A DNA stretch of 64,000 nucleotides from Candidatus Elulimicrobiales bacterium (GCA_034927475.1 JAYFPW010000006.1:9197-73196); one strand, 5' to 3'; numbered from the stretch's first letter, positions 41,040 to 62,335 are shown. The notes: generated by a model not told the origin, from the letters alone. Made by a program: numbers and translations.

Positions 41040-41232
41040 ACAAAAAGACATTGCAAATATTTAAAAAGACAATATTTTTCTTAAAAATAAAAGACTTATT
41101 TTTTATAAAGGACATAAAAAGACAAAAATTTATAAAGGACATTTAAGAAAATTTACATAAAGGACAAGTTATCCACAGATATTTTCATAAAAGACATTGC
41201 ATTTAATTTAATGTCGTTTATAATATAAACAG
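41040..41232. repeat. Iteron-like array of AAAG(G)ACA(W) units with perfect DnaA box TTATCCACA (41169-41177); member of dispersed intergenic repeat family
   Basis: At least 8 copies of aaaggacat/aaaagacat within ~190 bp. It ends with ATGTCGTTTATAATATAA, which is shared with the copies at 59640, 62195, 48010 (inverted) and 49740. Confidence 0.55.
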
Positions 41233-41311
41233 GGTGAGCAGCTTAGGATAAAAGCGCAACCCGGCTTACGGGAATAATAAAAATAATATCCTATAAAGCT
41301 GGTTCTCACCA
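41232..41311 (+). other. Predicted stable ~80-nt stem-loop (possible small ncRNA; function unknown)
   Basis: GGTGAGCAGC-TTAGGATA-[...CCCGgcttaCGGG...]-TATCCTA-GCTGgttCTCACC are nested helices. It is flanked by AAACAG direct repeats. It does not match tRNA, tmRNA, SRP or RNase P signatures I can recognise. Confidence 0.3.
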
Positions 41312-41546
41312 AACAGTTCGTTACAAGCAACACAAGTTGCATAATAGCTAAAATAAACTAATAATAAATAATAGCACCCAACTTATATATTTTTGTTTGT
41401 CTTTTATAACTTTTAGACAAATAACTCAAAAGTATCTTAAATGTCTTTTATAAAAATAATAATCATCATAAAAGACATAAGCATTGAAAAATGCATCTCA
41501 AATACTAGAGGATGATACCTCACTAAAAACAATCAATATTATTCGT

Positions 41547-41589
41547 GTCCAGCGAATTAAATCCTTTCCAAAGATTTAGCTCGCTGGAC
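41547..41589. other. 43-bp near-perfect palindrome / hairpin
   Basis: GTCCAGCGAattAAATCcTTTccAAAGATTTagcTCGCTGGAC has a 9-bp outer stem and a palindromic inner stem. Confidence 0.4.
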
Positions 41590-41638
41590 ATGAGAAATAT
41601 CAAACTCTCCAATTATTCAGCGTCATGGTTGAGCCAAG

Positions 41639-41667
41639 CTCCCGGTTGAAATATGGGGAGTTTTTTA
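41639..41667 (+). terminator. Rho-independent terminator at end of the 0.96-kb noncoding region
   Basis: CTCCCggttgaaatatGGGGAG followed by TTTTTT. This implies a plus-strand transcript upstream with no ORF. Confidence 0.5.
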
Positions 41668-41884
41668 TTTGCAATTTTATATATAAAAATAACAATTATT
41701 TTAAATATTTTGTCAAGTTGTATTTTTTTCAAAAAAAGCTTTATACTATAAGGGTATTCTTGAAATTCGTTTTTTAAAATAAAAGCGAAAGAAAAGAATG
41801 TGCGCATATTAATAATATTTAAGATAATCCTAGGAAAATATCTTAAATTTAATTTTAAAAAACAAATTTAATTTAAATAAAAAT

Positions 41885-42157
41885 ATGAATAAAGTAGCAC
41901 TTGCAGAAGAGATCAATAAAATCTTAAATACTTCTAAAGCAGAATCAGAAAGAGTTGTTGAAGCTTTGTTTGATTCAATTGCTCACGCTCTTAAAAAAGG
42001 AGAAGAAGTATCAGTAGCAGGATTTGGAAAATTCTCTGTTAAACACAGAAAAGCTAGAGAAGCCAGAAATCCTAAGACTGGAGAAACTGTAAAAGTTCCA
42101 GCATCAAACGCTGTAAAGTTTTCAGTTGCTAAAGCTCTCAAAGAAGCTGTAAAGTAA
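41885..42157 (+). CDS. hup: DNA-binding protein HU
   Basis: 90 aa with GFGKFSVKHRKAREARNPKTGETVKVPA, the canonical HU arm. Confidence 0.9.
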   Translation: MNKVALAEEINKILNTSKAESERVVEALFDSIAHALKKGEEVSVAGFGKFSVKHRKAREARNPKTGETVKVPASNAVKFSVAKALKEAVK

Positions 42158-42178
42158 TTTACTTTTAGATAAAAATAA

Positions 42179-42212
42179 AAGACCGACTATTTTAGTTGGT
42201 CTTTTGTTTTTT
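42179..42212. terminator. Bidirectional terminator after hup
   Basis: AGACCGACTattttAGTTGGTCT followed by TTTTGTTTTTTTT. Confidence 0.6.
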
Positions 42213-42219
42213 TTAAATC

Positions 42220-42804
42220 TTAGTTTTCCAAAAACATATTGTCTGGAAGGTGAGAAAGTTTAATTATATATCCCCTCCTTCTTTTTTCAGTTTTTGAAAT
42301 TTGAGCAGATGCATGTTTACTTGTTTTGTTTAAATAAGTTTCTGAGTAGATATGATCATAATAATCATCTCCAAGATAAGTTCCTAAATATGTAGGAATA
42401 TATTTGTCGATAATATCTTTTTCAACCTGTTCGAGCCATCTTATATTTGCTTCCTTCGTTGAACGTCTGTCATAAACAAACAGAGGAGAAGAAATACTGT
42501 TAACCCAAGAATATTTTAAAAATTCTGGATTATCGGTTACAAAGATAATCTTTTTAAACAACAAGGCTTTAAGAAGAAACTTTTTAAAAGATTTTCTCTC
42601 AGAGTCTTTAACAGACATATTTTTGCTTTTAAACGCCAGAAAGTAGTCGGAGTAAAATATTTTATACCCTTCGTCTTTCCACTCTTCAATCGAATTAATC
42701 ATTCGCTGAGACCTTGTCCCAACCAAGATTTTTGCTCTTAGTTTTAAGCTATATAAAATGTACAGCGTTAAAAGTAGCAATAAAATAAACACTAAAGTTC
42801 CCAT
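42220..42804 (-). CDS. Membrane-anchored hypothetical protein
   Basis: 194 aa with an N-terminal TM (LVFILLLLLTLYILYSL). No recognisable domain. Confidence 0.45.
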   Translation of the reverse strand: MGTLVFILLLLLTLYILYSLKLRAKILVGTRSQRMINSIEEWKDEGYKIFYSDYFLAFKSKNMSVKDSERKSFKKFLLKALLFKKIIFVTDNPEFLKYSWVNSISSPLFVYDRRSTKEANIRWLEQVEKDIIDKYIPTYLGTYLGDDYYDHIYSETYLNKTSKHASAQISKTEKRRRGYIIKLSHLPDNMFLEN

Positions 42805-43018
42805 TTTTAATTTTTTTAAAAGTTAATATTATTTTTTAAGTACTATTCTAAAAGAAAATTACCATAATTATATAGTAATGTCAAATATACCCATTTCTAA
42901 AAATCCCCTTCTGTGGTATAGTAATTTCATACAGAAAGGTTGCTAGACTTTATTGTTCTGAATGAGATTACGAAAGAATTTGATTATTAATTGAAATTTT
43001 GAAACTAAAAAATAAAAT

Positions 43019-43603
43019 ATGTTAATACCAACAGTCTTGGAAAAGACACAAAATGGCGAGCGTGCTTATGATATTTACTCTCGCCTCTTAAAAGAAAGGA
43101 TTATTTTTCTAGGAGAAGAAATAAATGAGCACACTTCTAATCTAGTTATAGCGCAGCTACTTTTTTTAGAAGCAGAAGATTCTAAAAAGGACATTACTTT
43201 ATACATTTCATCTCCCGGAGGACTAGTATCTGGGACACTTGCAATGATAGATACCATTAATCACATTAAATGTGACGTCTCTACTGTTTGTGTAGGGATG
43301 GCGGCTTCTGGAGGAGCTTGGCTTCTTTCTTCTGGAACAAAAGGAAAAAGATTTATACTTCCAAATGCGGAAGTGATGATTCATCAACCTCTTGGTGGAG
43401 CACAAGGACAAACTACAGATATTCTCATTACCGCTGAACAATATAGAAAACATCGTGAACTTTTAGCAGAAATGATGGCAAAGAATACTGGACAAAAGAA
43501 AGAAAAAGTTCTAAAAGACTTGGAAAGAGACTATTGGATGAGTGGAGAAGAAGCAAAAAAATACGGCATCGTTGATGAAGTTTTAAAACCAAAGAAGAAA
43601 TAA
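43019..43603 (+). CDS. clpP: ATP-dependent Clp protease proteolytic subunit
   Basis: Has [13 protein letters not shown], the catalytic Ser in [11 protein letters not shown], and MIHQP. Confidence 0.95.
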
Positions 43604-43632
43604 TACTCTTCAGTATATTTTAATTTAAAAAT

Positions 43633-45141
43633 ATGAAAGAAGTATTTTTTATAAACTTTAACTTATTATTTATTTTGTTGGCAGCTATTGCTGGACTTGT
43701 GCTTGGTTATGTCGGAAGACATTATGTGGCTTTACTTAGAAAAAATTCAGTAGAAAATGAAATTGAGAGAAGACTTGAAGACGCTAAGAAAAATGCAAAA
43801 GAAATCGAAGACGCATCAAAAAAAGATGCTGACGAAATGAAACAAAGATTAGATAAAACAGAAGCTAGGTTAGATAAAAAAGAAGACGAATTAGAATCTC
43901 GCGAAGAAGCTGTCAAATTAGAAAAAGAAAAACTTTTCTCTGCAGCAGAAGAAGTAAAAAATATACAAGAAAGAGTTTTAGAAAAAGAAAAAGGTATTAA
44001 CAAAGAACTTGAAAAAGTCGCATCTCTTTCCGAAGAAGAGGCTAGAAAAATTTTAATAGAAAAAGTTGAGAGGGATAGCGGGGAAGATATTAAGTCTCGC
44101 CTATTAAAAATTTCTCGTGATGGGGAGAAAAAAATAGAAGAAAAAGCCAAAGATATTTTAGTTTCTGTAATACACAGATTAGCCAATTCAAATATTACAG
44201 AATTCATGACTTCTGTAGTAGAAATCGAAGATGAAGAAATCAAAGGTAAAATAATTGGTAAAGAAGGAAGAAATATTAAAACTTTTGAAAGGGCAAGTGG
44301 AGTAGAATTATTAATCGATGAAATTCCAAACGCTGTAGTCATTTCTTGTTTCGATCCAATTAGAAGAGCTATAGCAAAAAATGCTTTAGAAGGTCTTATA
44401 AAAGACGGAAGAATTCAACCAGCTCGCATTGAAGAATTTTTAGAAAAATCAAAAAGAGAAATAGGAACATTTATTCGCCAAAAAGGAGAAGAAGCTATCA
44501 GGGAAACTGGAATTTTAAATATTCCAGATGACATATTGCCGATTTTAGGAAGGCTTTATTTTAGAACAAGTTATGGACAGAATGTTTTAGATCACTCTAT
44601 AGAAATGTCTCATATTGCAGGTATGCTCGCCAGTGAGCTTGGTGCAGATGTGCAAGTAGCCAAAGCCGGAGCCTTACTTCACGATATTGGAAAAACTGTC
44701 GATCATGAAATTACTGGTACACATGTAGAAATTGGAAGAAGAATTTTGATGAAATACGGTGTAGATGAAAAAGTTATTTTAGCAATGCAAGCCCATCATG
44801 AAGAATATCCTTACGAAACTTTAGAATCTGTAATAGTTCAAGTAGCTGATACAATTTCTGGATCTCGTCCAGGAGCTAGAAGAGATTCTATAGAAAATTA
44901 TATTAAAAGACTTTCCGATTTAGAAAATTTAGCCATGAGTTTTCTTGGTATAGAAAAAGTTTATGCTTTGCAAGCTGGTAGAGAAATAAGAGTTTTTGTG
45001 GAGCCAAAATTGGTTAGTGATTTAGAAGCTTTATCTTTAGCTAGAAATATTGCTCTTAAAATTGAAACTGAAATTAAGTATCCAGGTGAGATTAAAATTA
45101 ATGTGATTCGTGAGAGTAGAGTGATAGAATTTGCGAGATAG
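43633..45141 (+). CDS. rny: Ribonuclease Y
   Basis: N-terminal TM, coiled coil, KH (IGKEGRNIKTFERASGVEL), and HD domain (LLHDIGK, HHEEY); 502 aa. Confidence 0.9.
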   Translation: MKEVFFINFNLLFILLAAIAGLVLGYVGRHYVALLRKNSVENEIERRLEDAKKNAKEIEDASKKDADEMKQRLDKTEARLDKKEDELESREEAVKLEKEKLFSAAEEVKNIQERVLEKEKGINKELEKVASLSEEEARKILIEKVERDSGEDIKSRLLKISRDGEKKIEEKAKDILVSVIHRLANSNITEFMTSVVEIEDEEIKGKIIGKEGRNIKTFERASGVELLIDEIPNAVVISCFDPIRRAIAKNALEGLIKDGRIQPARIEEFLEKSKREIGTFIRQKGEEAIRETGILNIPDDILPILGRLYFRTSYGQNVLDHSIEMSHIAGMLASELGADVQVAKAGALLHDIGKTVDHEITGTHVEIGRRILMKYGVDEKVILAMQAHHEEYPYETLESVIVQVADTISGSRPGARRDSIENYIKRLSDLENLAMSFLGIEKVYALQAGREIRVFVEPKLVSDLEALSLARNIALKIETEIKYPGEIKINVIRESRVIEFAR

Positions 45142-45155
45142 GGTTTAAAAAATAA

Positions 45156-45186
45156 AAAACTACCTTTAAGGTAGTTTTTTATTTTT
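45156..45186. terminator. Rho-independent terminator after rny
   Basis: AAAAACTACCTTtaaGGTAGTTTTTTATTTTT. Confidence 0.65.
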
Positions 45187-45208
45187 ATACTTAATAAGTT
45201 TCTTTTAA

Positions 45209-45550
45209 TTATTGATTAGCCATTTCTATGACTACTCCCGTTGCTTCTGGAAGATTATTACTAAATATATAGATGTAACCATCCCAGTCAGTTGCCACCA
45301 ATTTTGTTCCATCGGCAGAGGATGTGATAGAAGACCAGTATGGCATTAAACTCTCAGCTCCCCCCTCCTTCCAAGTTTCGCCACCATCTATTGACATATA
45401 AATTACTCCATCATATGTTGTTGCAGCCAACCTTGCGTCGCTAGCAGAAGATGTAACGGAAGCTTAATAAGACTCACTATTCGAAGCTTCACTCTCAGTC
45501 CATTTTTTCCCATCGTCTGCAGAGTGATAGAGTTTGCCAGGTAGTTTTAA
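45209..45550 (-). pseudogene. Remnant of a BNR/Asp-box repeat protein gene, interrupted by in-frame TAA (45464-45466)
   Basis: The reverse-strand reading ...LPGKLYHSADDGKKWTESEASNSESY*ASVTSSASDARLAATTYDGVIYMSIDGGETWKEGG... contains Asp-box motifs (SxDxGxxW) like the neighbouring 763-aa paralogue. It has no N-terminal signal region. Confidence 0.5.
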
Positions 45551-45628
45551 AAAATAAATATAAATTTAAAAATACAAATTCAAAAGCCCACGCCTTCAGT
45601 ACGGATCTTTTCTTCTTTAAAAAAATTC

Positions 45629-47920
45629 TTATTTCCTAATTTTTGCAACTACGCCTCTGGCTTGAGGAAGTTCATTGTACAACCTGTAAATCTTTGGTGT
45701 CTCTGTATTATCAGAATATTCCCATCTGACAAACATACTTTCTCCAGATCCAGACATGCTAACAATTGGGCTGTACCCCTTCGGAACACCAATCTCCTTA
45801 TTCCAAGTTTCTCCACAGTCTAAAGAAGAGTAAATATCTCCATCCCAATCAGAAATCAAAATCTTGTATCCATCATCAGAAATAGCCACACCGTTCCAAT
45901 AATCGGAACCGAGAGAGGTTATCTCTTTCCACGTCGCCCCTCCATCTCTAGATATAAGTGAGTAACCAGGATTTACACCTTCTATTGGTAACGGTTTGGT
46001 AATAACTATGGTCTTGCCATCTTTAGACGCATCTATTCCAGTAACAAGAGATAATAAAGGAGGATTTGTGTCTACCCAAGTTTTTCCTTCATCAGTAGAA
46101 ATATAAACACTGTCTGTAAAAGCAATAAATTTACTTCCACTATTTTCTACAAAAAGTTTTTTATTATACCAATATCCGCCTCTAGCAAGCTCTTCATGTT
46201 CTTCATATTCAATGTCTTCTAGTATAAAGTTTTCATCTAAAAGACTCTGTATTTCTAATTTGAAGAAATATAAGTAACCTATAAAATAGAGATATTTACC
46301 ATCAGGAGAAATATCGAAAGCGTCAAAAAAGATAGGAAAATCTGGAGGAAAATCATTCCAGGTATCACCACCGTCTAGAGAGAATATTGAATCTTCTGTT
46401 ATTCCATAAATCTTGTTTCCAAGAAATATAACTTCTCCATTTTCAGACATCTTTAAATCTACCCAATCGCCTAATGGAGCGCTACTGAGATTCCAATCTT
46501 GACCATAGTTATTAGAAATATAGACACTACCTTCTGATAAGGCCACAACCTTGTCTCCTTTCTTAGAAATTGCTAAAGAATCCAAAGACATTTGTCCAAT
46601 TTCTAACCAATCATTATATGTTAAAAGAAAGATATTATCTTCACTATAAGCAATACCTTTTTCATTCTCTACGAAAAATCTATAACGATAATAAGAGTTG
46701 GGTGTTAAATTTGTTGCGGTAGCTGTAAAAGTTCCCACATTAAAACTATCTGCTTCTTCTAAGATTTCATACGTACAAGAACTTTCCAGTGTAGCGCTTG
46801 AACAATATTCTACTCCTCGCCTTGTATGATTTGTGTTAATAAAAGCAGAAAAAGAAACTTCTGTTTGATTTCTAATAGCATAGGATAACGAAAATATTTT
46901 CGGTTTTTCTAATTCACCATATGAGTAAATATATCCATTTTGAAATCCAACAAAAAAATTCTTACCTTCACCATCTACAGAAATAGTTGTAGCTGACCAT
47001 TCTTCATCAGGTTTTAATACCTCTTTCCAACTTTTTCCACCATCAATAGAAAGTCCTATTTGATAGGCATTAATGGTCATTGATTTATTCCCGTCTCTAG
47101 AAGTGGCTAGTCCAGATGCTGCATAGCTCGGAGATTCAGCTTTATGCCAAGTATCTCCTCCATCTGTAGAATATGAGACAACTGCACCATTGGTTGCGGT
47201 TATTATTATGTTGTTTTCATCATCAGAGACTGATAAATCTTCCCAATACCAATAACCATCGTCATAAGTATAAGTGGTTATTGGTTTAGATATCCAAGTG
47301 GCTCCGTAATTATTTGAGATGAAAAAAGCGTCAGACCATCCGACAGATAGGATCTTTTCCCCATTTGGGGATACGTAAATATCTTTAGGATTTATGGGAT
47401 CAGTAGAACTTGCCCAACTTTCTCCAGAATCAGTTGACACATAAACCCTTATGCGATAATCATTTCTGTTATGAGCTATAGTCCCAATGGTTTTTCCATC
47501 ATCTGATAAGGATATATTGTGCCAATAGTCAACTTCAGGCGGATTATTTAAAGAGCTCCATGTTGCTCCAAAATCGGAAGATAGGTATATATAATTTTTT
47601 CCAGAAGCTATTACATATTTTCCGTCTGGAGAAGAATTAATATCTGACCAATGTTGAACGGGAAAACTTTTTAATTCCCAGGTATTTCCTTTGTCTTTAG
47701 ATATATAAATATTTTCACCATAATTTTCAATTGCAGCCAGTTGATTTCCGTCAGAAGAAGAGGTTATGGCTTTCCAATTTCTTTTGCCTGCATTAGTTTT
47801 AGCAGTCCAAACCATAGATATATTTGTCGTAGTAGCTTCTTGCGCAAAACTAAGACCAAAAGAAAAAAGTAGAGAAAGGATAAAGGCAGTAATAGTGAGT
47901 TTTTTAATAATATTTTTCAT
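45629..47920 (-). CDS. Secreted BNR/Asp-box repeat beta-propeller protein with Fn3-like insert
   Basis: Signal peptide plus >=10 Asp-box motifs (SKDKGNTW, SSDFGATW, STDSGESW, STDGGDTW, SIDGGKSW, SLDGGDTW, STDEGKTW, SRDGGATW, SLDCGETW). The TATATNLTPNSYYRYRFFVENEKG segment is shared with the 62378+ paralogue. Confidence 0.7.
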   Translation of the reverse strand: MKNIIKKLTITAFILSLLFSFGLSFAQEATTTNISMVWTAKTNAGKRNWKAITSSSDGNQLAAIENYGENIYISKDKGNTWELKSFPVQHWSDINSSPDGKYVIASGKNYIYLSSDFGATWSSLNNPPEVDYWHNISLSDDGKTIGTIAHNRNDYRIRVYVSTDSGESWASSTDPINPKDIYVSPNGEKILSVGWSDAFFISNNYGATWISKPITTYTYDDGYWYWEDLSVSDDENNIIITATNGAVVSYSTDGGDTWHKAESPSYAASGLATSRDGNKSMTINAYQIGLSIDGGKSWKEVLKPDEEWSATTISVDGEGKNFFVGFQNGYIYSYGELEKPKIFSLSYAIRNQTEVSFSAFINTNHTRRGVEYCSSATLESSCTYEILEEADSFNVGTFTATATNLTPNSYYRYRFFVENEKGIAYSEDNIFLLTYNDWLEIGQMSLDSLAISKKGDKVVALSEGSVYISNNYGQDWNLSSAPLGDWVDLKMSENGEVIFLGNKIYGITEDSIFSLDGGDTWNDFPPDFPIFFDAFDISPDGKYLYFIGYLYFFKLEIQSLLDENFILEDIEYEEHEELARGGYWYNKKLFVENSGSKFIAFTDSVYISTDEGKTWVDTNPPLLSLVTGIDASKDGKTIVITKPLPIEGVNPGYSLISRDGGATWKEITSLGSDYWNGVAISDDGYKILISDWDGDIYSSLDCGETWNKEIGVPKGYSPIVSMSGSGESMFVRWEYSDNTETPKIYRLYNELPQARGVVAKIRK

Positions 47921-47989
47921 AAAAATTTTTATAATTTGTTTTTATTTTTTAATTAGATAATTTATACAAAGAAAAAGATGCCTAGAACA

Positions 47990-48100
47990 AAAAGCTCTAA
48001 GCACCCTTACTTATATATTTATATTATAAACGACATTTTATAAAAGACAAGTTTTCATAAAGGACAAGATGGGGATAACTTCTTTGTTAAGTTTGTTAAA
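47990..48100. repeat. Inverted copy of dispersed promoter-proximal repeat (DnaA-box-like TTATCCCCA + TGTCCTTTAT/TGTCTTTTATAAAA/TGTCGTTTATAATATAA + 5'UTR hairpin)
   Basis: Its reverse complement matches 62213-62320 at ~90% over >100 bp. It sits upstream of the minus-strand BNR gene. Confidence 0.6.
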
Positions 48101-48153
48101 GATAAACTTTTACTTTTTATTTTTTTATATATACTTATATTTGTAAACACAGT

Positions 48154-48690: not shown

Positions 48691-48760
48691 AATAAAAGGA
48701 CAGAAAAAAGACTTTCAGATACATTGAAAGTCTTTTTCTTTATATTTTATAAGGTTTTTG

Positions 48761-49411: not shown

Positions 49412-49435
49412 ATATTCATCTTTATTTTATCATAA

Positions 49436-49463
49436 GTTTCACATGAAATTTTCATGTGAAATC
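49436..49463. promoter_or_regulatory. Perfect 25-bp palindrome TTTCACATGAAA-T-TTTCATGTGAAA; core of a cluster of TTTCAC(A/G)TGAAA sites
   Basis: Additional half-sites are at 49596-49607, 49531-49545 (TTTTACGTGAAAA), 50680-50691, and inside yraN at ~49245 and ~49308 (TTTCACGTGAAA). All lie in or near the yraN-ung divergent region. Confidence 0.45.
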
Positions 49464-49885
49464 ACTTTTTAAGTAAAATATTTAATTTAGAAATTAAAAA
49501 ATAATGTTTGTTTTTAGAATAAACAAAAACGTTTTACGTGAAAAATAAGAAAAACAAAAGAAAAAATAGTAGAACTATAGGAATTAATATTTTTGTTTCA
49601 CATGAAACAAAAAAGACATAAAATTGAGCAAAAAAGCCTTAAAAATAAAGACTTAAGGAATAAGCCTTATTTTAAGGACTTATTTGAAATAAACCTAGTG
49701 TCTTTTAGAAAATGTCTTTTAGAAAATGTCTCTTAAAAACATGTCGTTTATACACATTTGCACGGACTTTTCCACTATATTTTATAAAAGACAAGATTTT
49801 TTTCAAATGTCTTTTTGTTTAAAAAGTCTTTTATTATTCTTCAAATAACCTGAGAGAATATGCTAAGATTTTATATATAACAATT

Positions 49886-51962: not shown

Positions 51963-52100
51963 CTGAAAATTTTATTAAAGACAAAACTTAATATAAAAGT
52001 TGTCTTTTAGAAATATATCTTTTTAAGATGTCTTTTATATTTTTTGCTATATAATAGAAGCATTATTAATCTTAATTAAATATAAATATAAAAATTAAAT

Positions 52101-52496
52101 ATGTCATACATAACAAATATTGAAAAAGATACATTAGAAAATTCAAATTTTAGAAAAGTTCTCTTTACCGCAAAACATATGCAACTCGTAGTAATGAGCA
52201 TTCCAGTGGGAGGGGATATTGGAATGGAAACTCACGGAGATGTTGACCAATTTATTAGAGTAGAAAAAGGAAAAGCAAAATCTATCCTTAATGGAGTAGA
52301 AACAGAATTAGAAGATGATTTTTCAGTAATTGTTCCAGCTGGTACAGAACATAATATTGTAAATATTGGAGATGAAGATTTGAAAGTTTATACAATTTAC
52401 GCAAGACCTGAACATAAAAAAGGAACAATTCATACAACTAAAGAAGACGCAATGGCTAATGAGGAACATTTTGACGGTGCGACAGATGTAGAATAA
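52101..52496 (+). CDS. Cupin-domain protein
   Basis: 131 aa. The G(x)5HxH...E...H-like cupin motifs (METHGDVDQFIRVEKG; VPAGTEHNIVN) follow the RmlC-like cupin pattern. Confidence 0.65.
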   Translation: MSYITNIEKDTLENSNFRKVLFTAKHMQLVVMSIPVGGDIGMETHGDVDQFIRVEKGKAKSILNGVETELEDDFSVIVPAGTEHNIVNIGDEDLKVYTIYARPEHKKGTIHTTKEDAMANEEHFDGATDVE

Positions 52497-52519: not shown

Positions 52520-54022
52520 ATGACAAATATTTCACAAGAAACGATAAATAAAAAAAATATTCCTGAAGAAGTTCTTTGGGTGTGTGAAATGTTGTCAAAA
52601 AATAACTTCGATAGTTATTTGGTTGGGGGTTGTGTTAGAGATTTATTTCTTTCACGTGAACCAGGAGACTGGGATATCACAACTAATGCAACTCCAGACG
52701 AGATAATTAACATTTTTGGTGAAGATGAAACGGTTTATGAAAATCCTTTTGGAACTGTTGGTGTAAAAATAAGAAAAAATGATAGTGAAACGGAAGAAGT
52801 TGAAATCATAGAAGTTACAACTTATAGAAAAGAAGGAGAATATGAAGATTTTCGTAGACCAAATAAATTAGAATGGGGTAAAACCATAGAAGAAGATTTA
52901 GAGAGAAGGGATTTCACAATGAATGCTATAGCTTATAATCCTATAAACGACATTCTAAAAGACATTTATAAAGGACAAAATGATATAAAGGACAAAATTA
53001 TTAGAACAGTCGGAGAGGCGGAAGAAAGGTTTAATGAGGACGCTCTTCGCATGCTTAGAGCTGTACGCTTTTCAGCTCAATTGAATTTTGTGATTTCTAA
53101 TGAAACCTTAGAGGCTATTTTTCGCTTGGCATCAAATTTAGAAAAAATCTCTAAAGAAAGAATTCGTGATGAATTCATAAAAATAATTATGTCTTCTAAT
53201 CCAATGCAAGGATTACTCATTTCACAAAAATTGGGAATGTTGAAATATATTTCATCTGAGTTAGAAAGTGCCGTTGGAATAGAACAAAACGGACACCACG
53301 CTTTTGATGTTTTCGAGCATTCTCTTCGATCTTTGAATCACGCGGCTTCTCGGGAGTTTGATTTAGAAATTAAGTTAGCAGCTTTGTTCCACGATATCGG
53401 AAAAGTTAAAACCAGAAGATTTGATGAAACGAAAAAAGATTACACTTTTTATGGACATGAAGTGGTTAGCGAAAGAGTGACTAAGAAAATTTTAGAAGAA
53501 TTAAAAGTAGAAAAGAAAGTTATAGAAAAAACTTGTAAGCTAGTGCGATATCATATGTTCTTTTCTGATCCGAATGAAGTTAAGCTTTCTTCTGTCAGGA
53601 GACTTATTGTAAATATCGGAAAAGAAAATATTTGGGATTTAATTAATCTAAGACTTTGCGATAGAATGGGATCTGGAACAAAGAAAGAAGAACCTTGGAG
53701 ACTGCGAAAATTTGAAAGCATGATAGAAGAAGCTCTTCGTGATCCGATTTCTCTCAAAACTTTAAAAATAGATGGAGAAAAAATTATGACTATTCTAAAT
53801 GAAAAACCAGGGAAAAAGATTGGGTTAATTTTGCACGCGCTTTTTGAAGAAGTGATAGACAATGCATCCAAAAATAATTTAGAATATTTAGAGAAGAGGG
53901 TTTTAGAATTAAATAAATTAAGTGAGATAGAATTAGAAAGTTTAGGAACTTCTGGAAAAGATAAAATGCAAAATTTAAACGAAGAAGAATTGGTAGAAAT
54001 AAAGAAAAAGTTTAAAGTTTAA
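52520..54022 (+). CDS. cca: CCA-adding tRNA nucleotidyltransferase with HD domain
   Basis: Has GGCVRDLFLSREPGDWDITT (polβ-type NTase head), RDFTMNAIAY, and HD motifs (HHAFDVFEHS, LFHDIGK); 500 aa. Confidence 0.85.
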   Translation: MTNISQETINKKNIPEEVLWVCEMLSKNNFDSYLVGGCVRDLFLSREPGDWDITTNATPDEIINIFGEDETVYENPFGTVGVKIRKNDSETEEVEIIEVTTYRKEGEYEDFRRPNKLEWGKTIEEDLERRDFTMNAIAYNPINDILKDIYKGQNDIKDKIIRTVGEAEERFNEDALRMLRAVRFSAQLNFVISNETLEAIFRLASNLEKISKERIRDEFIKIIMSSNPMQGLLISQKLGMLKYISSELESAVGIEQNGHHAFDVFEHSLRSLNHAASREFDLEIKLAALFHDIGKVKTRRFDETKKDYTFYGHEVVSERVTKKILEELKVEKKVIEKTCKLVRYHMFFSDPNEVKLSSVRRLIVNIGKENIWDLINLRLCDRMGSGTKKEEPWRLRKFESMIEEALRDPISLKTLKIDGEKIMTILNEKPGKKIGLILHALFEEVIDNASKNNLEYLEKRVLELNKLSEIELESLGTSGKDKMQNLNEEELVEIKKKFKV

Positions 54023-56121: not shown

Positions 56122-56233
56122 TAGTTCTTATAAGAAATAACATAAAAGAGGTATTTTAAAACGGGCCCAGCAAGTGAAAGTCAAAAAATATTCTTTGTTT
56201 TTTAGAGATATCTAAATATGCTAAAATGTTTTT

Positions 56234-56764: not shown

Positions 56765-56772
56765 AATTATCC

Positions 56773-58329: not shown

Positions 58330-58346
58330 AAAGTAAAAAGAAAAAT

Positions 58347-59330
58347 ATGAGCAATAAAATTTTTTCAGAAATCATTTACTCTATTAAAAATAAAAATAGA
58401 AAAATATTTTCAGATTATTTTTATTTAATTTTAATTTCTTTTTTCCTTATTTTATTTTTTATCACTCTCTTATTATTTACTAAAGTCTACTCTTCAAGAG
58501 AACTGAAAGTTATTTTTTTAGATGTTGGACAAGGAGACTCGATTTTGATTCAAACTCCAGACGGGCAGAAAATTTTAATTGATGCTGGGCCAGATGACAA
58601 AGTGATTCGCAAAATAGAAAGTTATCTTTCTATTTTTAATAAAGAAATAGATTTAGTTATTATGAGTCACGGAGATTCTGATCATATTACCGGCTTTCTC
58701 TATCTTTTCCCAAAATATAATGTTAAAAATATTTTAGTGAATGGAGATCAAAATAAAGAGAGCTCAATATATTTAATTAATCAAGAAAAAATAGAACAAG
58801 AAATTGAATTCGATGAATCTAAAACTTATATAGCCAACTGTGGAGATATTTTATCTTTTGGAAAAGGTGAGGATTTGATAGAGGTGTATATTTTAAATCC
58901 AGTCAAGGGAGGTCTTATTATAAATGATAGCAATGAAAATTCTGTCGTCTTGCTTTTGGTATATAAAGATTACAGCTTTTTATTTTTAGGGGACGCCAGT
59001 CAAGAAATAGAGAATAAACTCTTTTTAAATATAGAAAATTGTTTTGAAAAAACTGTCTCTTTATCTTTAAAAGAGAAATTACAAGATTTAACGGTCTTAA
59101 AGGTTTCACACCACGGATCAAACACTGGTAGTTCAGCAAGCTTTTTAAAGCTCATTAAACCAGAATATGCAGTTATTAGCGCTGGAAAAGACAATAGATT
59201 TAATCATCCACACAAAGAAGTTGTAGAAATCTTAGAAAAATATAGTAAAAACATCTTAAACACTGTAAATACTGGAGATATTATTTTTCAGACTGACGGG
59301 AAAAATTTAGAAATAATAAAAGCAAAATAA
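58347..59330 (+). CDS. ComEC C-terminal metallo-beta-lactamase domain encoded as separate ORF
   Basis: N-terminal TM, then VIFLDVGQGDSILIQTPDGQKILIDAG and MSHGDSDHITG (HxHxDH) and SHHGS, matching the ComEC-type MBL. Confidence 0.8.
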   Translation: MSNKIFSEIIYSIKNKNRKIFSDYFYLILISFFLILFFITLLLFTKVYSSRELKVIFLDVGQGDSILIQTPDGQKILIDAGPDDKVIRKIESYLSIFNKEIDLVIMSHGDSDHITGFLYLFPKYNVKNILVNGDQNKESSIYLINQEKIEQEIEFDESKTYIANCGDILSFGKGEDLIEVYILNPVKGGLIINDSNENSVVLLLVYKDYSFLFLGDASQEIENKLFLNIENCFEKTVSLSLKEKLQDLTVLKVSHHGSNTGSSASFLKLIKPEYAVISAGKDNRFNHPHKEVVEILEKYSKNILNTVNTGDIIFQTDGKNLEIIKAK

Positions 59331-59360
59331 AAACGCCTTATTTTAAGGCGTTTTTGATTT
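59330..59360. terminator. Bidirectional terminator between ComEC-MBL ORF and rpmB
   Basis: AAAACGCCTTAttttAAGGCGTTTTT. Confidence 0.6.
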
Positions 59361-59564
59361 TTAAGCATTTACATTGAGATGAACTCCTTTTTTCATACAG
59401 CTGGTGCAGATTTTTACTCTAGGACCATTAGGAATTCTTGCCCACTGTAGATTGGGGTATTTTCTTCTCTTCCCTGCAGGATTAAATTTGGTAGCACGAA
59501 CTCTGTTGGAGTATTTTCCTACCACCTTTGTTCCTTTTTGGCATGCTGGACAAATGTTTGACAT
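59361..59564 (-). CDS. rpmB: 50S ribosomal protein L28
   Basis: 67 aa with a C..C...TKFNPAGKRRKYPNLQ...C..C pattern typical of L28. Confidence 0.75.
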   Translation of the reverse strand: MSNICPACQKGTKVVGKYSNRVRATKFNPAGKRRKYPNLQWARIPNGPRVKICTSCMKKGVHLNVNA

Positions 59565-59639
59565 AAATTTAGTTTCTTTAATATTTCAAAATATTATCAT
59601 AAGTTGTCTTTTTTTACAAGGTTGTTAAAAATATTTGAG

Positions 59640-59790
59640 AGTTTTTTTAAGGGTGTCTATAAAAACAAAGACTCATAAAGGACACTTATCCACAACTTGT
59701 CCTTTATAAAAACTTGTCTTTTATAAGATGTCGTTTATAATATAAGTATATAAGTAATGGGTTGCTAATTGAGCTTTTAGTTCTCTTGGC
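59640..59790. repeat. Dispersed promoter-proximal repeat copy with perfect DnaA box TTATCCACA (59676-59684) between inverted ATAAAGGACA / TGTCCTTTAT arms
   Basis: cATAAAGGACActTATCCACAacTTGTCCTTTATAAAAACTTGTCTTTTATAAGATGTCGTTTATAATATAAGTATATAAGTAA is ~90% identical to 62213-62290. Confidence 0.6.
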
Positions 59791-59841
59791 AGCCTTTTTA
59801 TTTGTAAATTTTATTTAACTTTTTAATTAAGAACAAAAATC

Positions 59842-60666
59842 ATGAAAAAAAAATTAGTAACAATATTAACTTTAATATTTGTTTTCACCATGTTTTCTGC
59901 TGTGGCTAATGCACAAAAACCAGGCGAGGTTTTAGTCGGTGAATACACATATTATGACGCAGAAGGAGATTTAGAATATGGGTCAACTTATCAATGGTAT
60001 AGAGGAGACACTCCTATACCAGGAGCTACAGATATAAATTATACTATTACTGAAGAAGATATAGGAACAATTCTATATTTTGAGGTGACTCCTAGATCTT
60101 TGACAGGAATTTCTCCAGGAGAGCCATTTAAGAGTGAGGGAATAGAAATTTCTAAAAAGTCTTCAGAAAAGCCTTCAGGCTTATTACCTTTACCTATACC
60201 GGTAAAAGCTTCTACTTCTACTCCAGTTGTGATTCAGGCAACTTCTACCGCCACTACCACTATCGTAACCCCTACAACTCCTAAGACAGGTATAGTTTCA
60301 GGAAATGGTTCATATGTCTCTCCTTTAGATCAAAAGACTTACACTTGTAATGCAGACAGCAAACCATTCAACTCATTTATGAGATTAAACTCTAAAAACA
60401 ATGATGTGAATCAAGTTAAGCTTTGGCAGGCATTCTTAAATGCAGATTTAGGTCTTAATATACCTATTACAGGTTTCTTTGGACAACAAACTTTTGAAGC
60501 TACTAAAGCTTTTCAAAAAAAATATGCTTCTGAAATCTTAACTCCATGGGATATTCAAGATGCAACAGGATATTTCTATAAATCAACACAATATAAAGCT
60601 AATAACCTCTTATCATGTTCAGGAATGACTCTAACTTTAGATAATGGTGTAGTTCTTAATTACTAA
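59842..60666 (+). CDS. Secreted hypothetical protein
   Basis: 274 aa with a signal peptide (LTLIFVFTMFSAVANA) and a T/S/P-rich linker. Confidence 0.45.
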   Translation: MKKKLVTILTLIFVFTMFSAVANAQKPGEVLVGEYTYYDAEGDLEYGSTYQWYRGDTPIPGATDINYTITEEDIGTILYFEVTPRSLTGISPGEPFKSEGIEISKKSSEKPSGLLPLPIPVKASTSTPVVIQATSTATTTIVTPTTPKTGIVSGNGSYVSPLDQKTYTCNADSKPFNSFMRLNSKNNDVNQVKLWQAFLNADLGLNIPITGFFGQQTFEATKAFQKKYASEILTPWDIQDATGYFYKSTQYKANNLLSCSGMTLTLDNGVVLNY

Positions 60667-60690
60667 GAAGTTTCAAATAAAATCTTAAGA

Positions 60691-60720
60691 AAACTGCCTT
60701 AATGGCAGTTTTTGTTTTGT
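60691..60720 (+). terminator. Rho-independent terminator
   Basis: AAAACTGCCttaatGGCAGTTTTTGTTTTG. Confidence 0.6.
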
Positions 60721-60748
60721 TGCGTGGTATATTATAGAAACAATAATT

Positions 60749-61459
60749 ATGGATATACTATTTTTAATTTTCTTTTTTATTATTATCTTTTATTCTATCA
60801 TTTTACATGAAATAGCGCATGGTTATGCAGCCTATAGAAATGGGGATGCGACAGCTTACAATGCGGGGCGATTAACTTTGAACCCCATCTCTCATATTGA
60901 TGCGATAGGCTCTATTGTAGTTCCTATTTTTTCATATTTAGTATTGAAATTTCCTTTTGGTTGGGCAAAACCTGTTCCCTATAATCCAAACAATATACAA
61001 GGTAAAAAATATGCAGAATTAGAAATTTCAGCAGCTGGGATTTTAACTAATTTCACAATAGCTCTTTTAGCTGTAGTTGTTTTTTATATATTAAGATTTT
61101 TTGGTTTAGGAACAGAGTCAGTATTTTTAATACTTCAAACCATTACTTCAGTAAATTTATTTTTAGGATTATTTAATTTATTACCATTTCCACCAGCAGA
61201 TGGTTTTTCAGTTTTTACAGAACTTTTTTCTTTAGCAAAAGATTTTTGGTTAAAAATTAAAAATAGTTTTTCGAAAAAGAAAGAATATGAAGTGAGGTAT
61301 ATGGGCAAAACAAATTCTTTTAAAAATACAAGCTATAGAATAAAAGCTTTATTTTCCAACCCTTTAATGATGATAATTATAATTATAGTTGCTGTGAATA
61401 TTTTTCAGTTACTTGTCCCTTATATAATGTCCTTTATAAATTTTTTATACTCATTTTAG
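60749..61459 (+). CDS. Site-2 protease family (peptidase M50) membrane metalloprotease
   Basis: Has the HExxH motif (ILHEIAHGYAAY) in TM1, LNPISHID, and the NLLPFPPADGF (LDG-type) motif; multi-TM, 236 aa. Confidence 0.7.
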   Translation: MDILFLIFFFIIIFYSIILHEIAHGYAAYRNGDATAYNAGRLTLNPISHIDAIGSIVVPIFSYLVLKFPFGWAKPVPYNPNNIQGKKYAELEISAAGILTNFTIALLAVVVFYILRFFGLGTESVFLILQTITSVNLFLGLFNLLPFPPADGFSVFTELFSLAKDFWLKIKNSFSKKKEYEVRYMGKTNSFKNTSYRIKALFSNPLMMIIIIIVAVNIFQLLVPYIMSFINFLYSF

Positions 61460-61521
61460 TTTTCCCCACTTTTGTCCTTTATAAATATTGTCTTTTATAA
61501 AATGTCCTTTATAATATATAT
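61455..61521. repeat. Degenerate copy of dispersed promoter-proximal repeat (TGTCCTTTATAAA / TGTCTTTTATAAAA / TGTCCTTTATAATATAT)
   Basis: It has the same three-unit tandem architecture as the 59640 and 62195 copies, but the DnaA-box position reads TTTCCCCAC. Confidence 0.45.
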
Positions 61522-62193
61522 ATGTATAGAAATACTAAAAAAATTCTAGTTTTTTCATTTTTAATAATGTCCTTTATAGGTTTTGGTTTTTATAATGTAG
61601 ACGCGCAAGTAGAACAAAAGTTTTCTCCTATAGCTGATAGTGTTTCATGTATTGATGCACAATATGATTTAAGTTTTGGCTCTAGAGATTACGCGCTTTA
61701 TGGAAATGTACAAAAACTTCAACACTTCCTTTTTGAAAATGGAATTATGTATCATGCTCCAACTGGATATTTTGGTCCAATCACTCAAGCTTCCTTAATT
61801 AAGTATCAAACCCTGAGAAACCTTTATCCTACAGGCTTTTTTGATTCAAATACCAGAAAAGCTGTAGCTAGAGAGACTTGTGAACAAAATGAAATAGTTA
61901 ATAATGTTAGACTTATTACTAATTACAATCCACAATATCCAAATACTCAACAACCAAACCCGACTTATTCTCCACAAACTCAATATCCAGATAATACCAA
62001 CACTCAAATTCCTAATTCCACAAATACTTCTAGCAATCAAAGTCCTTATTATTATGTCCCTCAGACCACAAATCCTTACTACAGCACCACTACCACAAAC
62101 ACCCCCACTTTAGATAAACAGATTTATTATCAAATAACTGAACAGATGCTAGGATTTAAGCTTAACTCTACAACCCCAAATGTTCTTCCATAA
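61522..62193 (+). CDS. Secreted protein with putative peptidoglycan-binding (PG_binding_1-like) domain and Q/P/T/N-rich tail
   Basis: Signal peptide, then TGYFGPITQASLIKYQ (compare the DGxFGPxT...FQ motif), and a C-terminal low-complexity YP(N/Q)TQ repeat region. Confidence 0.5.
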   Translation: MYRNTKKILVFSFLIMSFIGFGFYNVDAQVEQKFSPIADSVSCIDAQYDLSFGSRDYALYGNVQKLQHFLFENGIMYHAPTGYFGPITQASLIKYQTLRNLYPTGFFDSNTRKAVARETCEQNEIVNNVRLITNYNPQYPNTQQPNPTYSPQTQYPDNTNTQIPNSTNTSSNQSPYYYVPQTTNPYYSTTTTNTPTLDKQIYYQITEQMLGFKLNSTTPNVLP

Positions 62194-62194
62194 T

Positions 62195-62335
62195 AAACGA
62201 TAAACGACAAAGTTATCCACATCTTGTCCTTTACAAAATATTGTCTTTTATAAAATGTCGTTTATAATATAAGTATATAAGTAAGGGTGCTTAGAGCTTT
62301 TTGCTCTAGGCATCTTTTCTTTGTATAAAATATCC
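62195..62335. repeat. Dispersed promoter-proximal repeat copy with perfect DnaA box TTATCCACA (62213-62221) and conserved 5'UTR hairpin
   Basis: Same architecture as the other copies. The GCTTAGAGCtttttGCTCTAGGC hairpin is shared with the inverted copy at 47990-48020. Confidence 0.6.

What the first reader, a model, noticed from the sequence alone, without database searches (positions are those of the whole stretch)
41040..62335. Dispersed promoter-proximal repeat family: DnaA box flanked by inverted ATAAAGGACA arms plus tandem TGTCYTTTATAAAA units ending in TATAAT
At least eight intergenic sites carry 2-4 tandem copies of TGTC(C/T)TTTATAAAA, often ending in ATGTCGTTTATAATATAA: 41040-41232, 41400-41480, 47990-48100 (inverted), 49690-49810, 51975-52050, 59640-59790, 61455-61521 and 62195-62335.

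Three copies contain a perfect DnaA box TTATCCACA (41169, 59676, 62213) and a fourth has TTATCCCCA. Chance expectation for this 9-mer is ~1 per window, not 3 all inside the same repeat. The copies at 59640, 62195 and 48010 are ~90% identical over 80-110 bp. Every copy sits 40-120 bp upstream of a gene start, mostly for secreted proteins or hup/ung/cupin.

Candidate explanations:
- a DnaA-controlled regulon (DnaA as a global transcription factor in a regulator-poor genome);
- binding sites for an unknown regulator;
- a MITE-like mobile promoter cassette.
Basis: seen in the sequence. Interest (0 to 1): 0.7.

Follow-up and report, generated by a model that had tools for sequence, protein, structure and literature searches.

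The report
DnaA-box promoter cassette of Patescibacteria
The repeats are real: they form a conserved promoter cassette found in many tiny CPR/Patescibacteria genomes, with a perfect DnaA-binding site fixed 41 bases upstream of the -10 box, and it sits in front of genes for exported surface proteins and one small RNA, so the replication initiator DnaA may also control the cell surface.

Summary
TGTC[CTG]TTTA units occur 41 times; 28 are intergenic (p=6e-17) and 39 lie at 41-62 kb. TTATCCACA occurs 5 times against 0.5 expected, and 3 of those are inside the repeats.

It is not a MITE. The same cassette sits at orthologous promoters in at least 14 Patescibacteria MAGs, within the conserved block recJ-rnhA-comEC-MBL-rpmB-[cassette genes]-tuf.

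Consensus: AG-TTATCCACA, 19-21 A/T-rich nt (often with a TGTC unit), TTGTCT(-35)TTTATAAAA, TGTCGTT, TATAAT(-10), ATAAAT, then ATATAAG and a GC-cored hairpin followed by TTTTGTTTT.

The box-to-TATAAT gap is 41±1 nt in 29 of 38 boxes, which places the box at -62 to -54. Neither the box nor the hairpin was part of the search pattern.

Downstream genes encode signal-peptide or envelope proteins, plus a conserved ~165-nt ncRNA. Housekeeping promoters (dnaA, rpmH, nusA, clpP, RNase P RNA, tuf) lack both elements.

The window's DnaA keeps all six base-contacting residues.

Best reading: a dedicated sigma-70-type promoter class. DnaA is bound at a class-I-like position. An unidentified factor binds the TGTC units that overlap -35, spacer and -10. 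A terminator-like hairpin sits at the 5' end and acts as stabiliser or attenuator. Protein binding and any effect on transcription are inferred, not shown. I found no published description.

The parts
41043..41224 (+). Cassette A, the promoter of a conserved ncRNA. Seven inverted units (AAAGACA/AAGGACA, 41043-41196); DnaA box 41169-41177; -35 TTGCAT 41197-41202; TGTCGTT-TATAAT 41212-41224 (-10 at 41219-41224).
   Evidence: The same box-N41-TATAAT promoter precedes the homologous ncRNA in L018 and L026.
41231..41395 (+). Conserved ncRNA of about 165 nt driven by cassette A. It starts AGGGUGAGC and ends AGCACCCAACUUAUAUA; the class is unknown.
   Evidence: Homologs in L026 (E=1e-13) and L018 (E=1e-4) by nhmmer. 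The consensus fold has a 5'/3' closing stem. No Rfam match even at E<=10.
47969..48078 (-). Cassette B. Box variant TTATCCCCA 48070-48078; units 48053-48066 and 48036-48049; -35 TTGTCT 48045-48050; TGTCGTT-TATAAT 48023-48035; leader hairpin plus U-tract 47969-48012. It drives the 763-aa BNR/sortilin-like signal-peptide protein at 45629-47920.
   Evidence: (a top terminator-like hit at 48008-47974).
59675..59801 (+). Cassette C. Inverted unit 59675-59684; DnaA box 59686-59694; units 59698-59711 and 59715-59728; -35 TTGTCT 59714-59719; TGTCGTT-TATAAT 59729-59741; ATATAAG and hairpin plus U-tract 59754-59801. It drives the 274-aa signal-peptide protein at 59842-60666.
   Evidence: The cassette sequence shown is unchanged in the relatives L012 and L165.
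61460..61521 (+). Cassette D, leaderless. Degenerate box TTTTCCCCA 61460-61468; units 61473-61486, 61489-61502 and 61503-61515 (TGTCCTT-TATAAT; -10 at 61510-61515). The ATG of the 223-aa PG_binding_1 protein is at 61522.
   Evidence: Orthologous promoters in L012, L165 and L041 have a perfect box, the same spacing and the ATG 6 nt after TATAAT.
62193..62321 (+). Cassette E. Inverted units 62193-62209; DnaA box 62213-62221; units 62225-62238 and 62242-62255; -35 62241-62246; TGTCGTT-TATAAT 62256-62268; hairpin plus U-tract 62279-62321. It drives a BNR-family signal-peptide protein from 62379 to beyond 64000.
   Evidence: (a top terminator-like hit at 62283-62317).
41398..41477 (.). TGTC units without a box (41398+, 41442+, 41469-). 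They lie between the ncRNA and a second structured RNA candidate.
49699..49793 (.). TGTC units without a box: 49699, 49713, 49727 and TGTCGTTTATACA at 49742 on the plus strand, upstream of ung; one unit on the minus strand at 49785-49793.
52001..52054 (+). TGTC units without a box (52001, 52029) followed by TATAAT (52049-52054), upstream of the cupin gene at 52101. The TGTC unit at 52029 is conserved in L165, where a second unit lies 29 nt upstream of it (28 nt in the window).
52944..52994 (-). Four-unit array lying antisense inside the CCA-adding-enzyme ORF.
   Evidence: It is kept in relative L165 despite amino-acid changes. Its function is unexplained.

Best explanation
This is a dedicated, vertically inherited promoter class of low-GC Parcubacteria/Paceibacteria-type Patescibacteria. 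It is used for a small set of envelope or exported-protein genes and one ncRNA.

Shown by sequence. A sigma-70-type core (TTGTCT or TTGCAT, 16 nt, TATAAT) starts transcription about 7 nt downstream at an A. A consensus high-affinity DnaA box lies at -62 to -54, always in the same orientation and 41±1 nt from the -10. TGTCYTTTAT units lie at the -35, in the spacer running into the -10 (TGTCGTT-TATAAT), often just after the box, and often inverted just before it. Most transcripts begin AUAUAAG and fold at once into a 12-20-bp hairpin followed by UUUUGUUUU.

Inferred. DnaA bound at -58 sits in the geometry of a class-I activator (compare CRP at -61.5). It ties expression of the surface proteome and the ncRNA to DnaA status, meaning replication or energy state. 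A second, unidentified protein binds the TGTC units. Because these overlap -35, spacer and -10, the simplest role is an operator array for repression. Alternatively the units could be low-affinity DnaA-ATP sites nucleated from the strong box. The 5' hairpin sequesters the 5' end and would stabilise the mRNA, as in the ompA, aprE and slpA leaders. It is also indistinguishable from this genome's intrinsic terminators, so it could act as an attenuator.
For: - Enrichment and intergenic bias of the units and the box.
- A pattern containing only two TGTC units and TATAAT retrieved 35 loci, mostly Patescibacteria MAGs. In these, the unsearched box sits 40-42 nt upstream of TATAAT for 29 of 38 boxes. 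Among 65 non-redundant TGTCNTTTATAAT sites, 33 of 35 TGTCG-type sites have the box against 3 of 30 TGTCY-type sites.
- Box variants TTATTCACA and TTTTCCACA fall at the degenerate positions of the TTWTNCACA consensus as I recall it (Schaper and Messer); variant counts are. TTATCCACA is the highest-affinity box in many phyla (PMC4285127).
- The window's DnaA conserves R399, P423, D433, H434, T435 and H439 (alignment to 1J1V).
- Leaderless orthologs place an ATG 6 nt after TATAAT, which fixes the -10 and the start site.
- Housekeeping promoters in the window and the conserved tuf promoter of relatives lack both the box and the units, so this is not the generic promoter.
- Downstream genes are signal-peptide or envelope proteins: BNR/sortilin-like, giant repeat proteins, PG_binding_1 proteins and a small membrane protein.
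- Conserved gene order places the cassettes at orthologous promoters.
- The hairpin is supported by covariation: 88% of cells are paired against 38-54% when partners are slid, 27 double changes against 7.8 expected, and 0 of 500 shuffles reach the observed value. The window's hairpins are the top terminator-like hits.
- A viral contig carries about 12 direct TGTCCTTTA units (plus one TGTCTTATA variant), most with no attached -10, so the unit behaves as a protein-binding site.
Against: - No binding or expression data exist. DnaA binding and any transcriptional effect are inference.
- The spacing is almost invariant, with no ±10-bp variants apart from one at 31 nt. That fits a rigid core-promoter-like element better than a typical activator site.
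- One cassette (L008, 6194) has the box, the spacing, the -10, ATATAAG and the hairpin but no TGTC units, so the units are dispensable at least once.
- Higher-GC Patescibacteria have TGTC arrays without any box, so the two elements are separable. The association of G with the box is partly a lineage effect.
- No clear cluster of DnaA boxes was found near dnaA for comparison.
- The loci were retrieved by motif, and most represent one syntenic region. Genome-wide copy number and specificity remain unknown.
Confidence: 0.58

Rival explanations
1. Single-regulator model. TTATCCACA is not read by DnaA here. It is part of one composite operator (inverted unit, box, direct units) bound by an unknown lineage-specific transcription factor, and the identity to the DnaA box is coincidental or reflects competition with DnaA.
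For: The box is often flanked by inverted and direct TGTC units. Read on the opposite strand, the box TGT-GG-ATAA resembles a shortened unit TGT-SS-TTTATAA (direct reading of the sequence). The spacing is rigid.
Against: The match to the universal high-affinity DnaA box is 9 of 9, and tolerated variants fall mainly at its degenerate positions. The host DnaA reading head is intact, so DnaA should bind regardless. The distance between flanking units and the box varies by 1-4 bp on each side, which is poor for a rigid composite site. One cassette has no units.
Confidence: 0.15
2. Antitermination module resembling lambda PR'. A factor bound between -35 and -10 (the TGTCGTT unit), or at the box, loads onto RNA polymerase. 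The polymerase is held by a sigma-dependent pause caused by the -10-like TATAAG at about +2 to +7. The modified polymerase then reads through the terminator at about +12 to +50. Polymerases arriving from upstream genes are stopped, which insulates long surface-protein genes.
For: ATATAAG is conserved at the transcript start and is retained in at least one cassette that has no hairpin (L036, 4807). The hairpin plus U-tract is indistinguishable from bona fide terminators in this genome. A conserved sequence-specific element lies in the spacer. Several downstream genes are very long (733-1541 aa).
Against: No Q-, RfaH- or LoaP-like gene was identified. The A-rich 5' flank pairs with the U-tract and would bury the 5' end, which fits a stabiliser equally well. 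The ncRNA promoter and the leaderless variants use the same promoter without a terminator.
Confidence: 0.12
3. DnaA titration or reservoir sites. The perfect boxes mainly buffer free DnaA, as datA does, and merely happen to sit by strong promoters. Transcription is not controlled by DnaA.
For: The cassettes hold three of the window's five perfect boxes, and the only ones that are intergenic. The dnaA-dnaN spacer has only degenerate boxes.
Against: A titration role does not explain a fixed orientation and a 41±1-nt distance to the -10 across at least 14 MAGs.
Confidence: 0.08
4. MITE-like mobile promoter cassette that spreads within and between genomes.
For: Three copies in the window are 80-93% identical over 83-120 nt. 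Assemblies of the same strain break at the repeat.
Against: Copies lie at orthologous promoters in a conserved gene order in at least 12 MAGs. Between genomes only motif positions are conserved and the linkers diverge. The most similar window copies (62.2 and 48.0 kb) belong to paralogous BNR genes and stay alignable from the box to the start codon, which indicates gene duplication. Hairpin type tracks gene family. No terminal inverted repeats or target-site duplications bound the unit.
Confidence: 0.03

Closest known systems
DnaA-regulated promoters (E. coli dnaA, nrdAB, mioC; B. subtilis dnaA and sda; Caulobacter gcrA and ftsZ). From my own knowledge.
   Same: A consensus DnaA box lies next to a sigma-70-type promoter, with DnaA doubling as a transcription factor.
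   Different: Here the box is at one fixed position (-62 to -54) and in one orientation across a multi-gene set of exported proteins plus an ncRNA. It is conserved across many MAGs and always accompanied by TGTC units. None of the known cases shares this architecture or this gene class.
Class I activator geometry (CRP at -61.5 of lac, contacting the alpha C-terminal domain over an UP-like stretch). From my own knowledge.
   Same: The site is centred about 58 bp upstream of the start, and an A/T-rich stretch lies between it and the -35.
   Different: The binder would be monomeric DnaA rather than a CRP dimer. No variants offset by ±10-11 bp were seen.
Pho boxes and OmpR/PhoB- or WalR-type direct repeats (TGTCA or TGTWAH half-sites with an A/T-rich tail that overlap the -35). 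From my own knowledge.
   Same: TGTC-plus-A/T-rich direct repeats replace or overlap the -35, and the regulated genes encode secreted or cell-wall proteins.
   Different: The period is 14-17 bp rather than 10-11 bp. Units also occur inverted and over the -10. No response regulator was identified.
5'-terminal stabiliser stem-loops (E. coli ompA, B. subtilis aprE, Lactobacillus slpA leaders). From my own knowledge.
   Same: A stable hairpin within about 0-4 nt of the 5' end of mRNAs for abundant exported proteins.
   Different: Here the hairpin is followed by a canonical U-tract and looks like a full intrinsic terminator.
Lambda PR'-QBE-pause-tR' late promoter module. From my own knowledge.
   Same: A specific element lies between -35 and -10, a -10-like sequence lies in the initially transcribed region, and a terminator follows shortly downstream.
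   Different: The cassette is chromosomal, multi-copy and in front of host surface-protein genes. No Q-like factor is known.
Iteron-type replication origins (pSC101-like: DnaA box, A/T-rich region, direct repeats, and inverted partial repeats over a promoter). From my own knowledge.
   Same: The same list of ingredients is present, and a viral contig carries long arrays of the unit.
   Different: The cassettes are at orthologous chromosomal promoters, about 100 bp long, with two or three units. No Rep gene is present.

Membership tests
DnaA box / DnaA-regulated promoter | 9-mer matching TTATCCACA (relaxed form TTWTNCACA) | tested here: met
   31 of 37 cassette boxes are exact. Variants are TTATTCACA (2), TTTTCCACA (1), TTATCCCCA (2) and TTTTCCCCA (1). 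The consensus is listed in PMC4285127.
DnaA box / DnaA-regulated promoter | The organism encodes a DnaA whose domain IV can read the box | tested here: met
   dnaA lies at 5090-6436 on the minus strand. R399, P423, D433, H434, T435 and H439 are all conserved in the alignment to 1J1V.
DnaA box / DnaA-regulated promoter | DnaA occupies the site and changes transcription | not testable with these tools
   This needs EMSA, DAP-seq or ChIP, plus reporter assays.
Sigma-70-type promoter | -35 and -10 hexamers with a 16-18-nt spacer, oriented toward a gene | tested here: met
   TTGTCT-16-TATAAT scores 10 of 12 in four cassettes. The orientation is always toward the gene. An ATG lies 6 nt after the -10 in the leaderless orthologs.
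MITE / mobile repeat | Terminal inverted repeats, target-site duplication and non-orthologous variable insertion sites | tested here: not met
   Positions are orthologous within a conserved gene order. Only motif columns are conserved. Duplicated copies extend into paralogous genes.
Intrinsic terminator / leader attenuator | GC-rich hairpin followed immediately by a U-tract | tested here: met
Intrinsic terminator / leader attenuator | A competing antiterminator structure or ligand- or protein-binding leader, and measured premature 3' ends | not tested
   The leader is only about 45-55 nt, and no alternative fold was looked for systematically. Term-seq is needed.
5'-terminal mRNA stabiliser hairpin | The stem begins within about 4 nt of the 5' end | tested here: inconclusive
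   With the start site inferred from the leaderless variants, the extended stem begins at +1 to +4. The start site has not been mapped.
Pho box / OmpR-family direct repeats | Direct repeats with a 10-11-bp period | tested here: not met
   Unit spacings are 14, 16 and 17 bp.
Any Rfam family (hairpin leader or ncRNA) | Covariance-model match | tested here: not met
   No match at the gathering threshold, nor at E<=5-10 on the relevant stretches.
oriC | Cluster of several DnaA boxes with an unwinding element | tested here: not met
   Each cassette has one box. The density of boxes with up to 2 mismatches is not elevated at 41 kb.

The most novel reading that the evidence does not exclude
In Parcubacteria/Paceibacteria-type CPR bacteria, DnaA is the master transcriptional switch of the surface or secreted proteome and of a new ncRNA. 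It acts from a rigidly phased site at -58, together with a new TGTC-unit-binding protein. The promoter-proximal 'terminator' and the -10-like ATATAAG form a promoter-specific pause and antitermination device that insulates these genes.
Probability: 0.25. Interest if true: 0.8.

Novelty: new variant of a known kind. Interest (0 to 1): 0.62.

Why it matters
Almost nothing is known about gene regulation in Patescibacteria. They have very few recognisable transcription factors, and their surface proteins mediate the epibiotic lifestyle.

A conserved cis-element set links the replication initiator to exported-protein genes and to an unknown ncRNA. This gives a concrete, testable entry point. The boxes, spacings and units can be mutated. 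DnaA can be purified. The TGTC array can be used as bait to fish out the second factor.

The cassette also supplies a candidate native, probably strong, promoter and 5' UTR for genetic tools in these organisms. It explains why assemblies break at this locus.

Tried and rejected
- Rfam. No family matched the leader hairpin or the ncRNA. SRP RNA, 6S RNA and tmRNA were considered for the ncRNA, but there was no model hit and ARAGORN found no tmRNA.
- Generic promoter element. Rejected because housekeeping promoters lack the units and the box.
- ECF-sigma reading (AAC...CGT). Rejected because no AAC is conserved 16-17 nt upstream of the CGT (direct reading of the listing).
- Extended -10. The TG is not at -15/-14.
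- oriC at 41 kb. The strand switch and skew minimum near 38 kb are suggestive, but there is only one box and the same promoter-ncRNA unit is conserved elsewhere.
- Divergent promoter hidden in TTATATTCTTTTTAG upstream of the box. This turned out to be the conserved 3' end and stop codon of the upstream M50-like gene.
- Metagenome scan with box-N40-42-TATAAT-N7-18-GGGT. It returned mostly chance hits, with real cassettes only in L066, L087, L128 and L141, plus L075/L134 as a partial case. Among the hits, 8 of 108 have TTGACA-like -35 boxes (about 1.5 expected). This hints that a box at -58 may exist in other lineages, but it was not pursued.
- Viral scan for TGTCCTTTA pairs. It was unspecific apart from L166.
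- Search for a neighbouring transcription-factor gene. Pfam on small ORFs and clustering of neighbours found none. PHROGs on the phage neighbours was uninformative.
- TIGR arrays. They surfaced in the literature search but do not fit, because there are no spacers.
- Literature. No paper links TTATCCACA or DnaA boxes to Patescibacteria promoters.

Full report
**Context**

The window has about 30% GC. It carries dnaN, dnaA, rpmH-rnpA-yidC, nusA, tig, hup, clpP, rny, ung, cca, recJ, rnhA, comEC, an RNase P RNA and five tRNAs. Exact-protein look-ups place it in bioreactor and Logan metagenome assemblies. Its closest public relative is the Patescibacteria MAG UBA5272 (L012/L014).

**Observation**

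- TGTCYTTTATAAAA with up to 1 mismatch gives 20 hits against 0.59 expected.
- TGTC[CTG]TTTA gives 41 hits. Of these, 28 are intergenic although only 12% of the bases are intergenic (p=6e-17), and 39 lie at 41.1-62.3 kb.
- TTATCCACA occurs 5 times against 0.51 expected. Three are inside repeats (41169, 59686, 62213) and two are inside ORFs.
- A fourth cassette has TTATCCCCA (48070-48078, minus strand) and a fifth has TTTTCCCCA (61460-61468).
- The three long copies are 89-93% identical over 83 nt.

**Anatomy**

TTGTCT-16 nt-TATAAT is a 10-of-12 sigma-70-type promoter in four cassettes. The penultimate unit supplies the -35. The last unit (TGTCGTT) fills the 3' end of the spacer and runs into the -10.

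I scanned 185,579 species genomes with a pattern made only of two units and TATAAT. This returned 35 loci, most from Patescibacteria, Paceibacterota, Nomurabacteria or Parcubacteria MAGs.

In these loci two elements that were not in the pattern recur.

1. TTATCCACA lies 41±1 nt upstream of TATAAT for 29 of the 38 boxes present. Across 65 non-redundant TGTCNTTTATAAT sites, 33 of 35 TGTCG-type sites have the box against 3 of 30 TGTCY-type sites. The latter come mostly from higher-GC lineages, so part of this contrast is a lineage effect.
2. Downstream of the -10 comes ATAAAT-ATATAAG-NAA, then a hairpin starting GGGTCGC or GGGTGCT, then TTTTGTTTT.

The consensus from 32 non-redundant copies is:
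aAG-TTATCCACA-(19-21 A/T-rich nt)-TTGTCTTTTATAaAA-TGTCGTT-TATAAT-ATAaaT-ATATAAG-nAA-GGGT....

**Start site**

In the PG_binding_1 gene of the window (61522) and in its orthologs in L012, L165 and L041, the ATG lies 6 nt after TATAAT. TATAAT is therefore the working -10, and transcription starts at the A about 7 nt downstream. In hairpin-type cassettes the RNA would then begin AUAUAAG.

**Hairpin**

- Free energy is -14 to -30 kcal/mol in 26 of 32 copies.
- The stem is maintained by compensatory changes. 88% of cells are paired against 38-54% when partners are slid, there are 27 double changes against 7.8 expected, and 0 of 500 shuffles reach the observed value (per-position pair types).
- The window's two BNR-gene hairpins are the top terminator-like hits in the region.
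- The A-rich 5' flank pairs with the U-tract, so the predicted 5' end is buried in a stem of up to about 20 bp.
- Genuine terminators in this genome have the same layout of A-tract, hairpin and U-tract. Sequence alone therefore cannot separate a stabiliser from an attenuator.

**Specificity**

Other promoters in the window lack both the units and the box. These are rpmH, dnaA, nusA, clpP, RNase P RNA and rpsO. The conserved tuf promoter in relatives (TTGCAT-N15-TGTGATAAT) lacks them as well.

The units occur inverted and far upstream. There are seven upstream of the ncRNA promoter, and this pattern is conserved in L018 and L026. A viral contig carries about 12 direct TGTCCTTTA units plus one TGTCTTATA variant; only one of them has a TATAAT attached. 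The unit therefore behaves as a protein-binding site, not as an extended -10.

One cassette (L008, 6194) keeps the box, the spacing, the -10, ATATAAG and the hairpin but has no units.

**What the cassette drives**

Every protein gene downstream of a full cassette whose complete ORF could be read has a signal peptide or membrane anchor:
- BNR/sortilin-like beta-propeller proteins (733-1139 aa), which carry the GGGTGCT-type hairpin;
- giant SNF(I/L)G-repeat proteins (1165-1541 aa);
- PG_binding_1 proteins;
- a 255-271-aa family with repeated DxxxDxxVN(S/T)xD motifs that I read as dockerin-like (my reading; not checked against Pfam);
- a 274-aa protein;
- a small membrane protein with the motif LPLSGNLF..RRISF.

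Cassette A instead drives a conserved ncRNA of about 165 nt at 41231-41395. Homologs with the same promoter occur in L018 and L026. It has no Rfam match.

**Not mobile**

Clustering the neighbouring proteins shows a conserved gene order in at least 12 MAGs:
recJ-rnhA-comEC-MBL-(rpmB)-[cassette]-sec274-M50-[cassette]-PGbind-[cassette]-smallTM-tuf-S10 operon.

The cassettes occupy orthologous promoters. Only motif columns are conserved between genomes. The most similar copies in the window (62.2 and 48.0 kb) remain alignable from the box to the start codon of paralogous BNR genes, which indicates gene duplication.

**DnaA**

TTATCCACA is the highest-affinity DnaA box in E. coli, B. subtilis and others (PMC4285127). 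The window's DnaA conserves all six residues that make base contacts in the E. coli domain IV-DNA structure. The residue list is from my memory of Fujikawa et al. 2003; the alignment to 1J1V is.

Two of the variant box types fall at the degenerate positions of TTWTNCACA (the consensus is from my memory of Schaper and Messer 1995).

No perfect box lies near dnaA. The dnaA-dnaN spacer has only boxes with 1-2 mismatches.

The TGTC units share TTGTCC with the actinobacterial box TTGTCCACA but lack the invariant CACA. They are therefore not DnaA boxes in the usual sense.

**Mechanism**

This section is inference. The box centre at about -58, with an A/T-rich UP-like stretch between it and the -35, matches class-I activator geometry. 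The fixed orientation and spacing argue for a direct interaction with RNA polymerase rather than simple titration of DnaA.

Units over the -35, spacer and -10 are most simply an operator array for a second factor. Alternatively they are weak DnaA-ATP sites.

The 5' hairpin is either a 5'-end-protecting stabiliser or a promoter-proximal attenuator. The conserved -10-like TATAAG at +2 to +7 raises the possibility of a sigma-dependent pause, as at lambda PR'.

**Novelty**

Five literature searches found no description of this architecture. I classify it as a new variant of a known kind, namely promoters regulated by DnaA or by a transcription factor. Its interest lies in its conservation, its rigid geometry, the gene class it controls, and the near absence of known regulation in this phylum.

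Noticed in passing
window 41231-41395 (+): A conserved ncRNA of about 165 nt lies between tig and hup. Its 5' GGGUG pairs with its 3' CACCC. Homologs occur in L018 and L026. It has no Rfam match even at E<=10, and its class is unknown.
   Followed up: partly
window 41485-41672 (+): A second strongly structured stretch (MFE -59 kcal/mol, z=-6.9) ends in a terminator-like hairpin and directly follows the TGTC units at 41398-41477. It is partly conserved in L026. The 64-aa ORF called on the opposite strand (41613-41807) may be spurious.
   Followed up: partly
window 49594-49609; weaker at 49530, 50678, 52648; palindromes at 49425-49470: parS-like sites: TGTTTCACATGAAACA is 1 mismatch from the B. 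subtilis-type parS TGTTTCACGTGAAACA. There are 4 hits with up to 3 mismatches against 0.37 expected.
   Followed up: partly
window 52944-52994 (-), inside the cca ORF 52520-54022: Four TGTC units lie antisense within the PolyA_pol head-domain coding sequence (...NDILKDIYKGQNDIKDK...). Relative L165 keeps the DNA motif although amino acids change (N-D-I to K-D-T). This could be an internal antisense promoter, a factor sink, or a codon coincidence.
   Followed up: partly
window 4753-5089 and about 38.2 kb: No perfect DnaA box lies next to dnaA or dnaN; only boxes with 1-2 mismatches are present. Gene orientation switches from minus to plus at about 38.2 kb, and cumulative GC skew has its minimum there. 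The replication origin may therefore not be at dnaA.
   Followed up: no
L008:1181-1383, L012:7053-7252, L032:5495-5737 and orthologs: The tuf gene of relatives has a highly conserved promoter (TTGCAT-N15-TGTGATAAT). It is followed by a conserved leader of about 150 nt containing a hairpin (CACTTGAC...CAAGTG) and the block AGTCCAATATTATTTCRCGAATAGATGYAGAAATAACAAAGAC. This may be an undescribed leader element.
   Followed up: no
L166:3311-3600 (IMGVR_UViG_3300031227_004534): A viral contig with 32% GC carries two arrays totalling about 12 direct TGTCCTTTA units, plus one TGTCTTATA variant, in a 1-kb intergenic control region. The arrays look like iterons or operators. Neighbouring ORFs have no annotated PHROG function.
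   Followed up: partly
L162-L164 (Logan contigs of the same strain): Independent assemblies all end about 59-77 nt after the 223-aa gene, which is inside cassette E. The repeated cassette breaks short-read assemblies.
   Followed up: no
L071, L132, L058, L107, L148 (metagenome contigs): TTATCCACA lies 40-42 nt upstream of TATAAT together with a canonical TTGACA -35 and no TGTC units. This was seen in 8 of 108 hits against about 1.5 expected. A box at -58 may exist in other lineages.
   Followed up: partly
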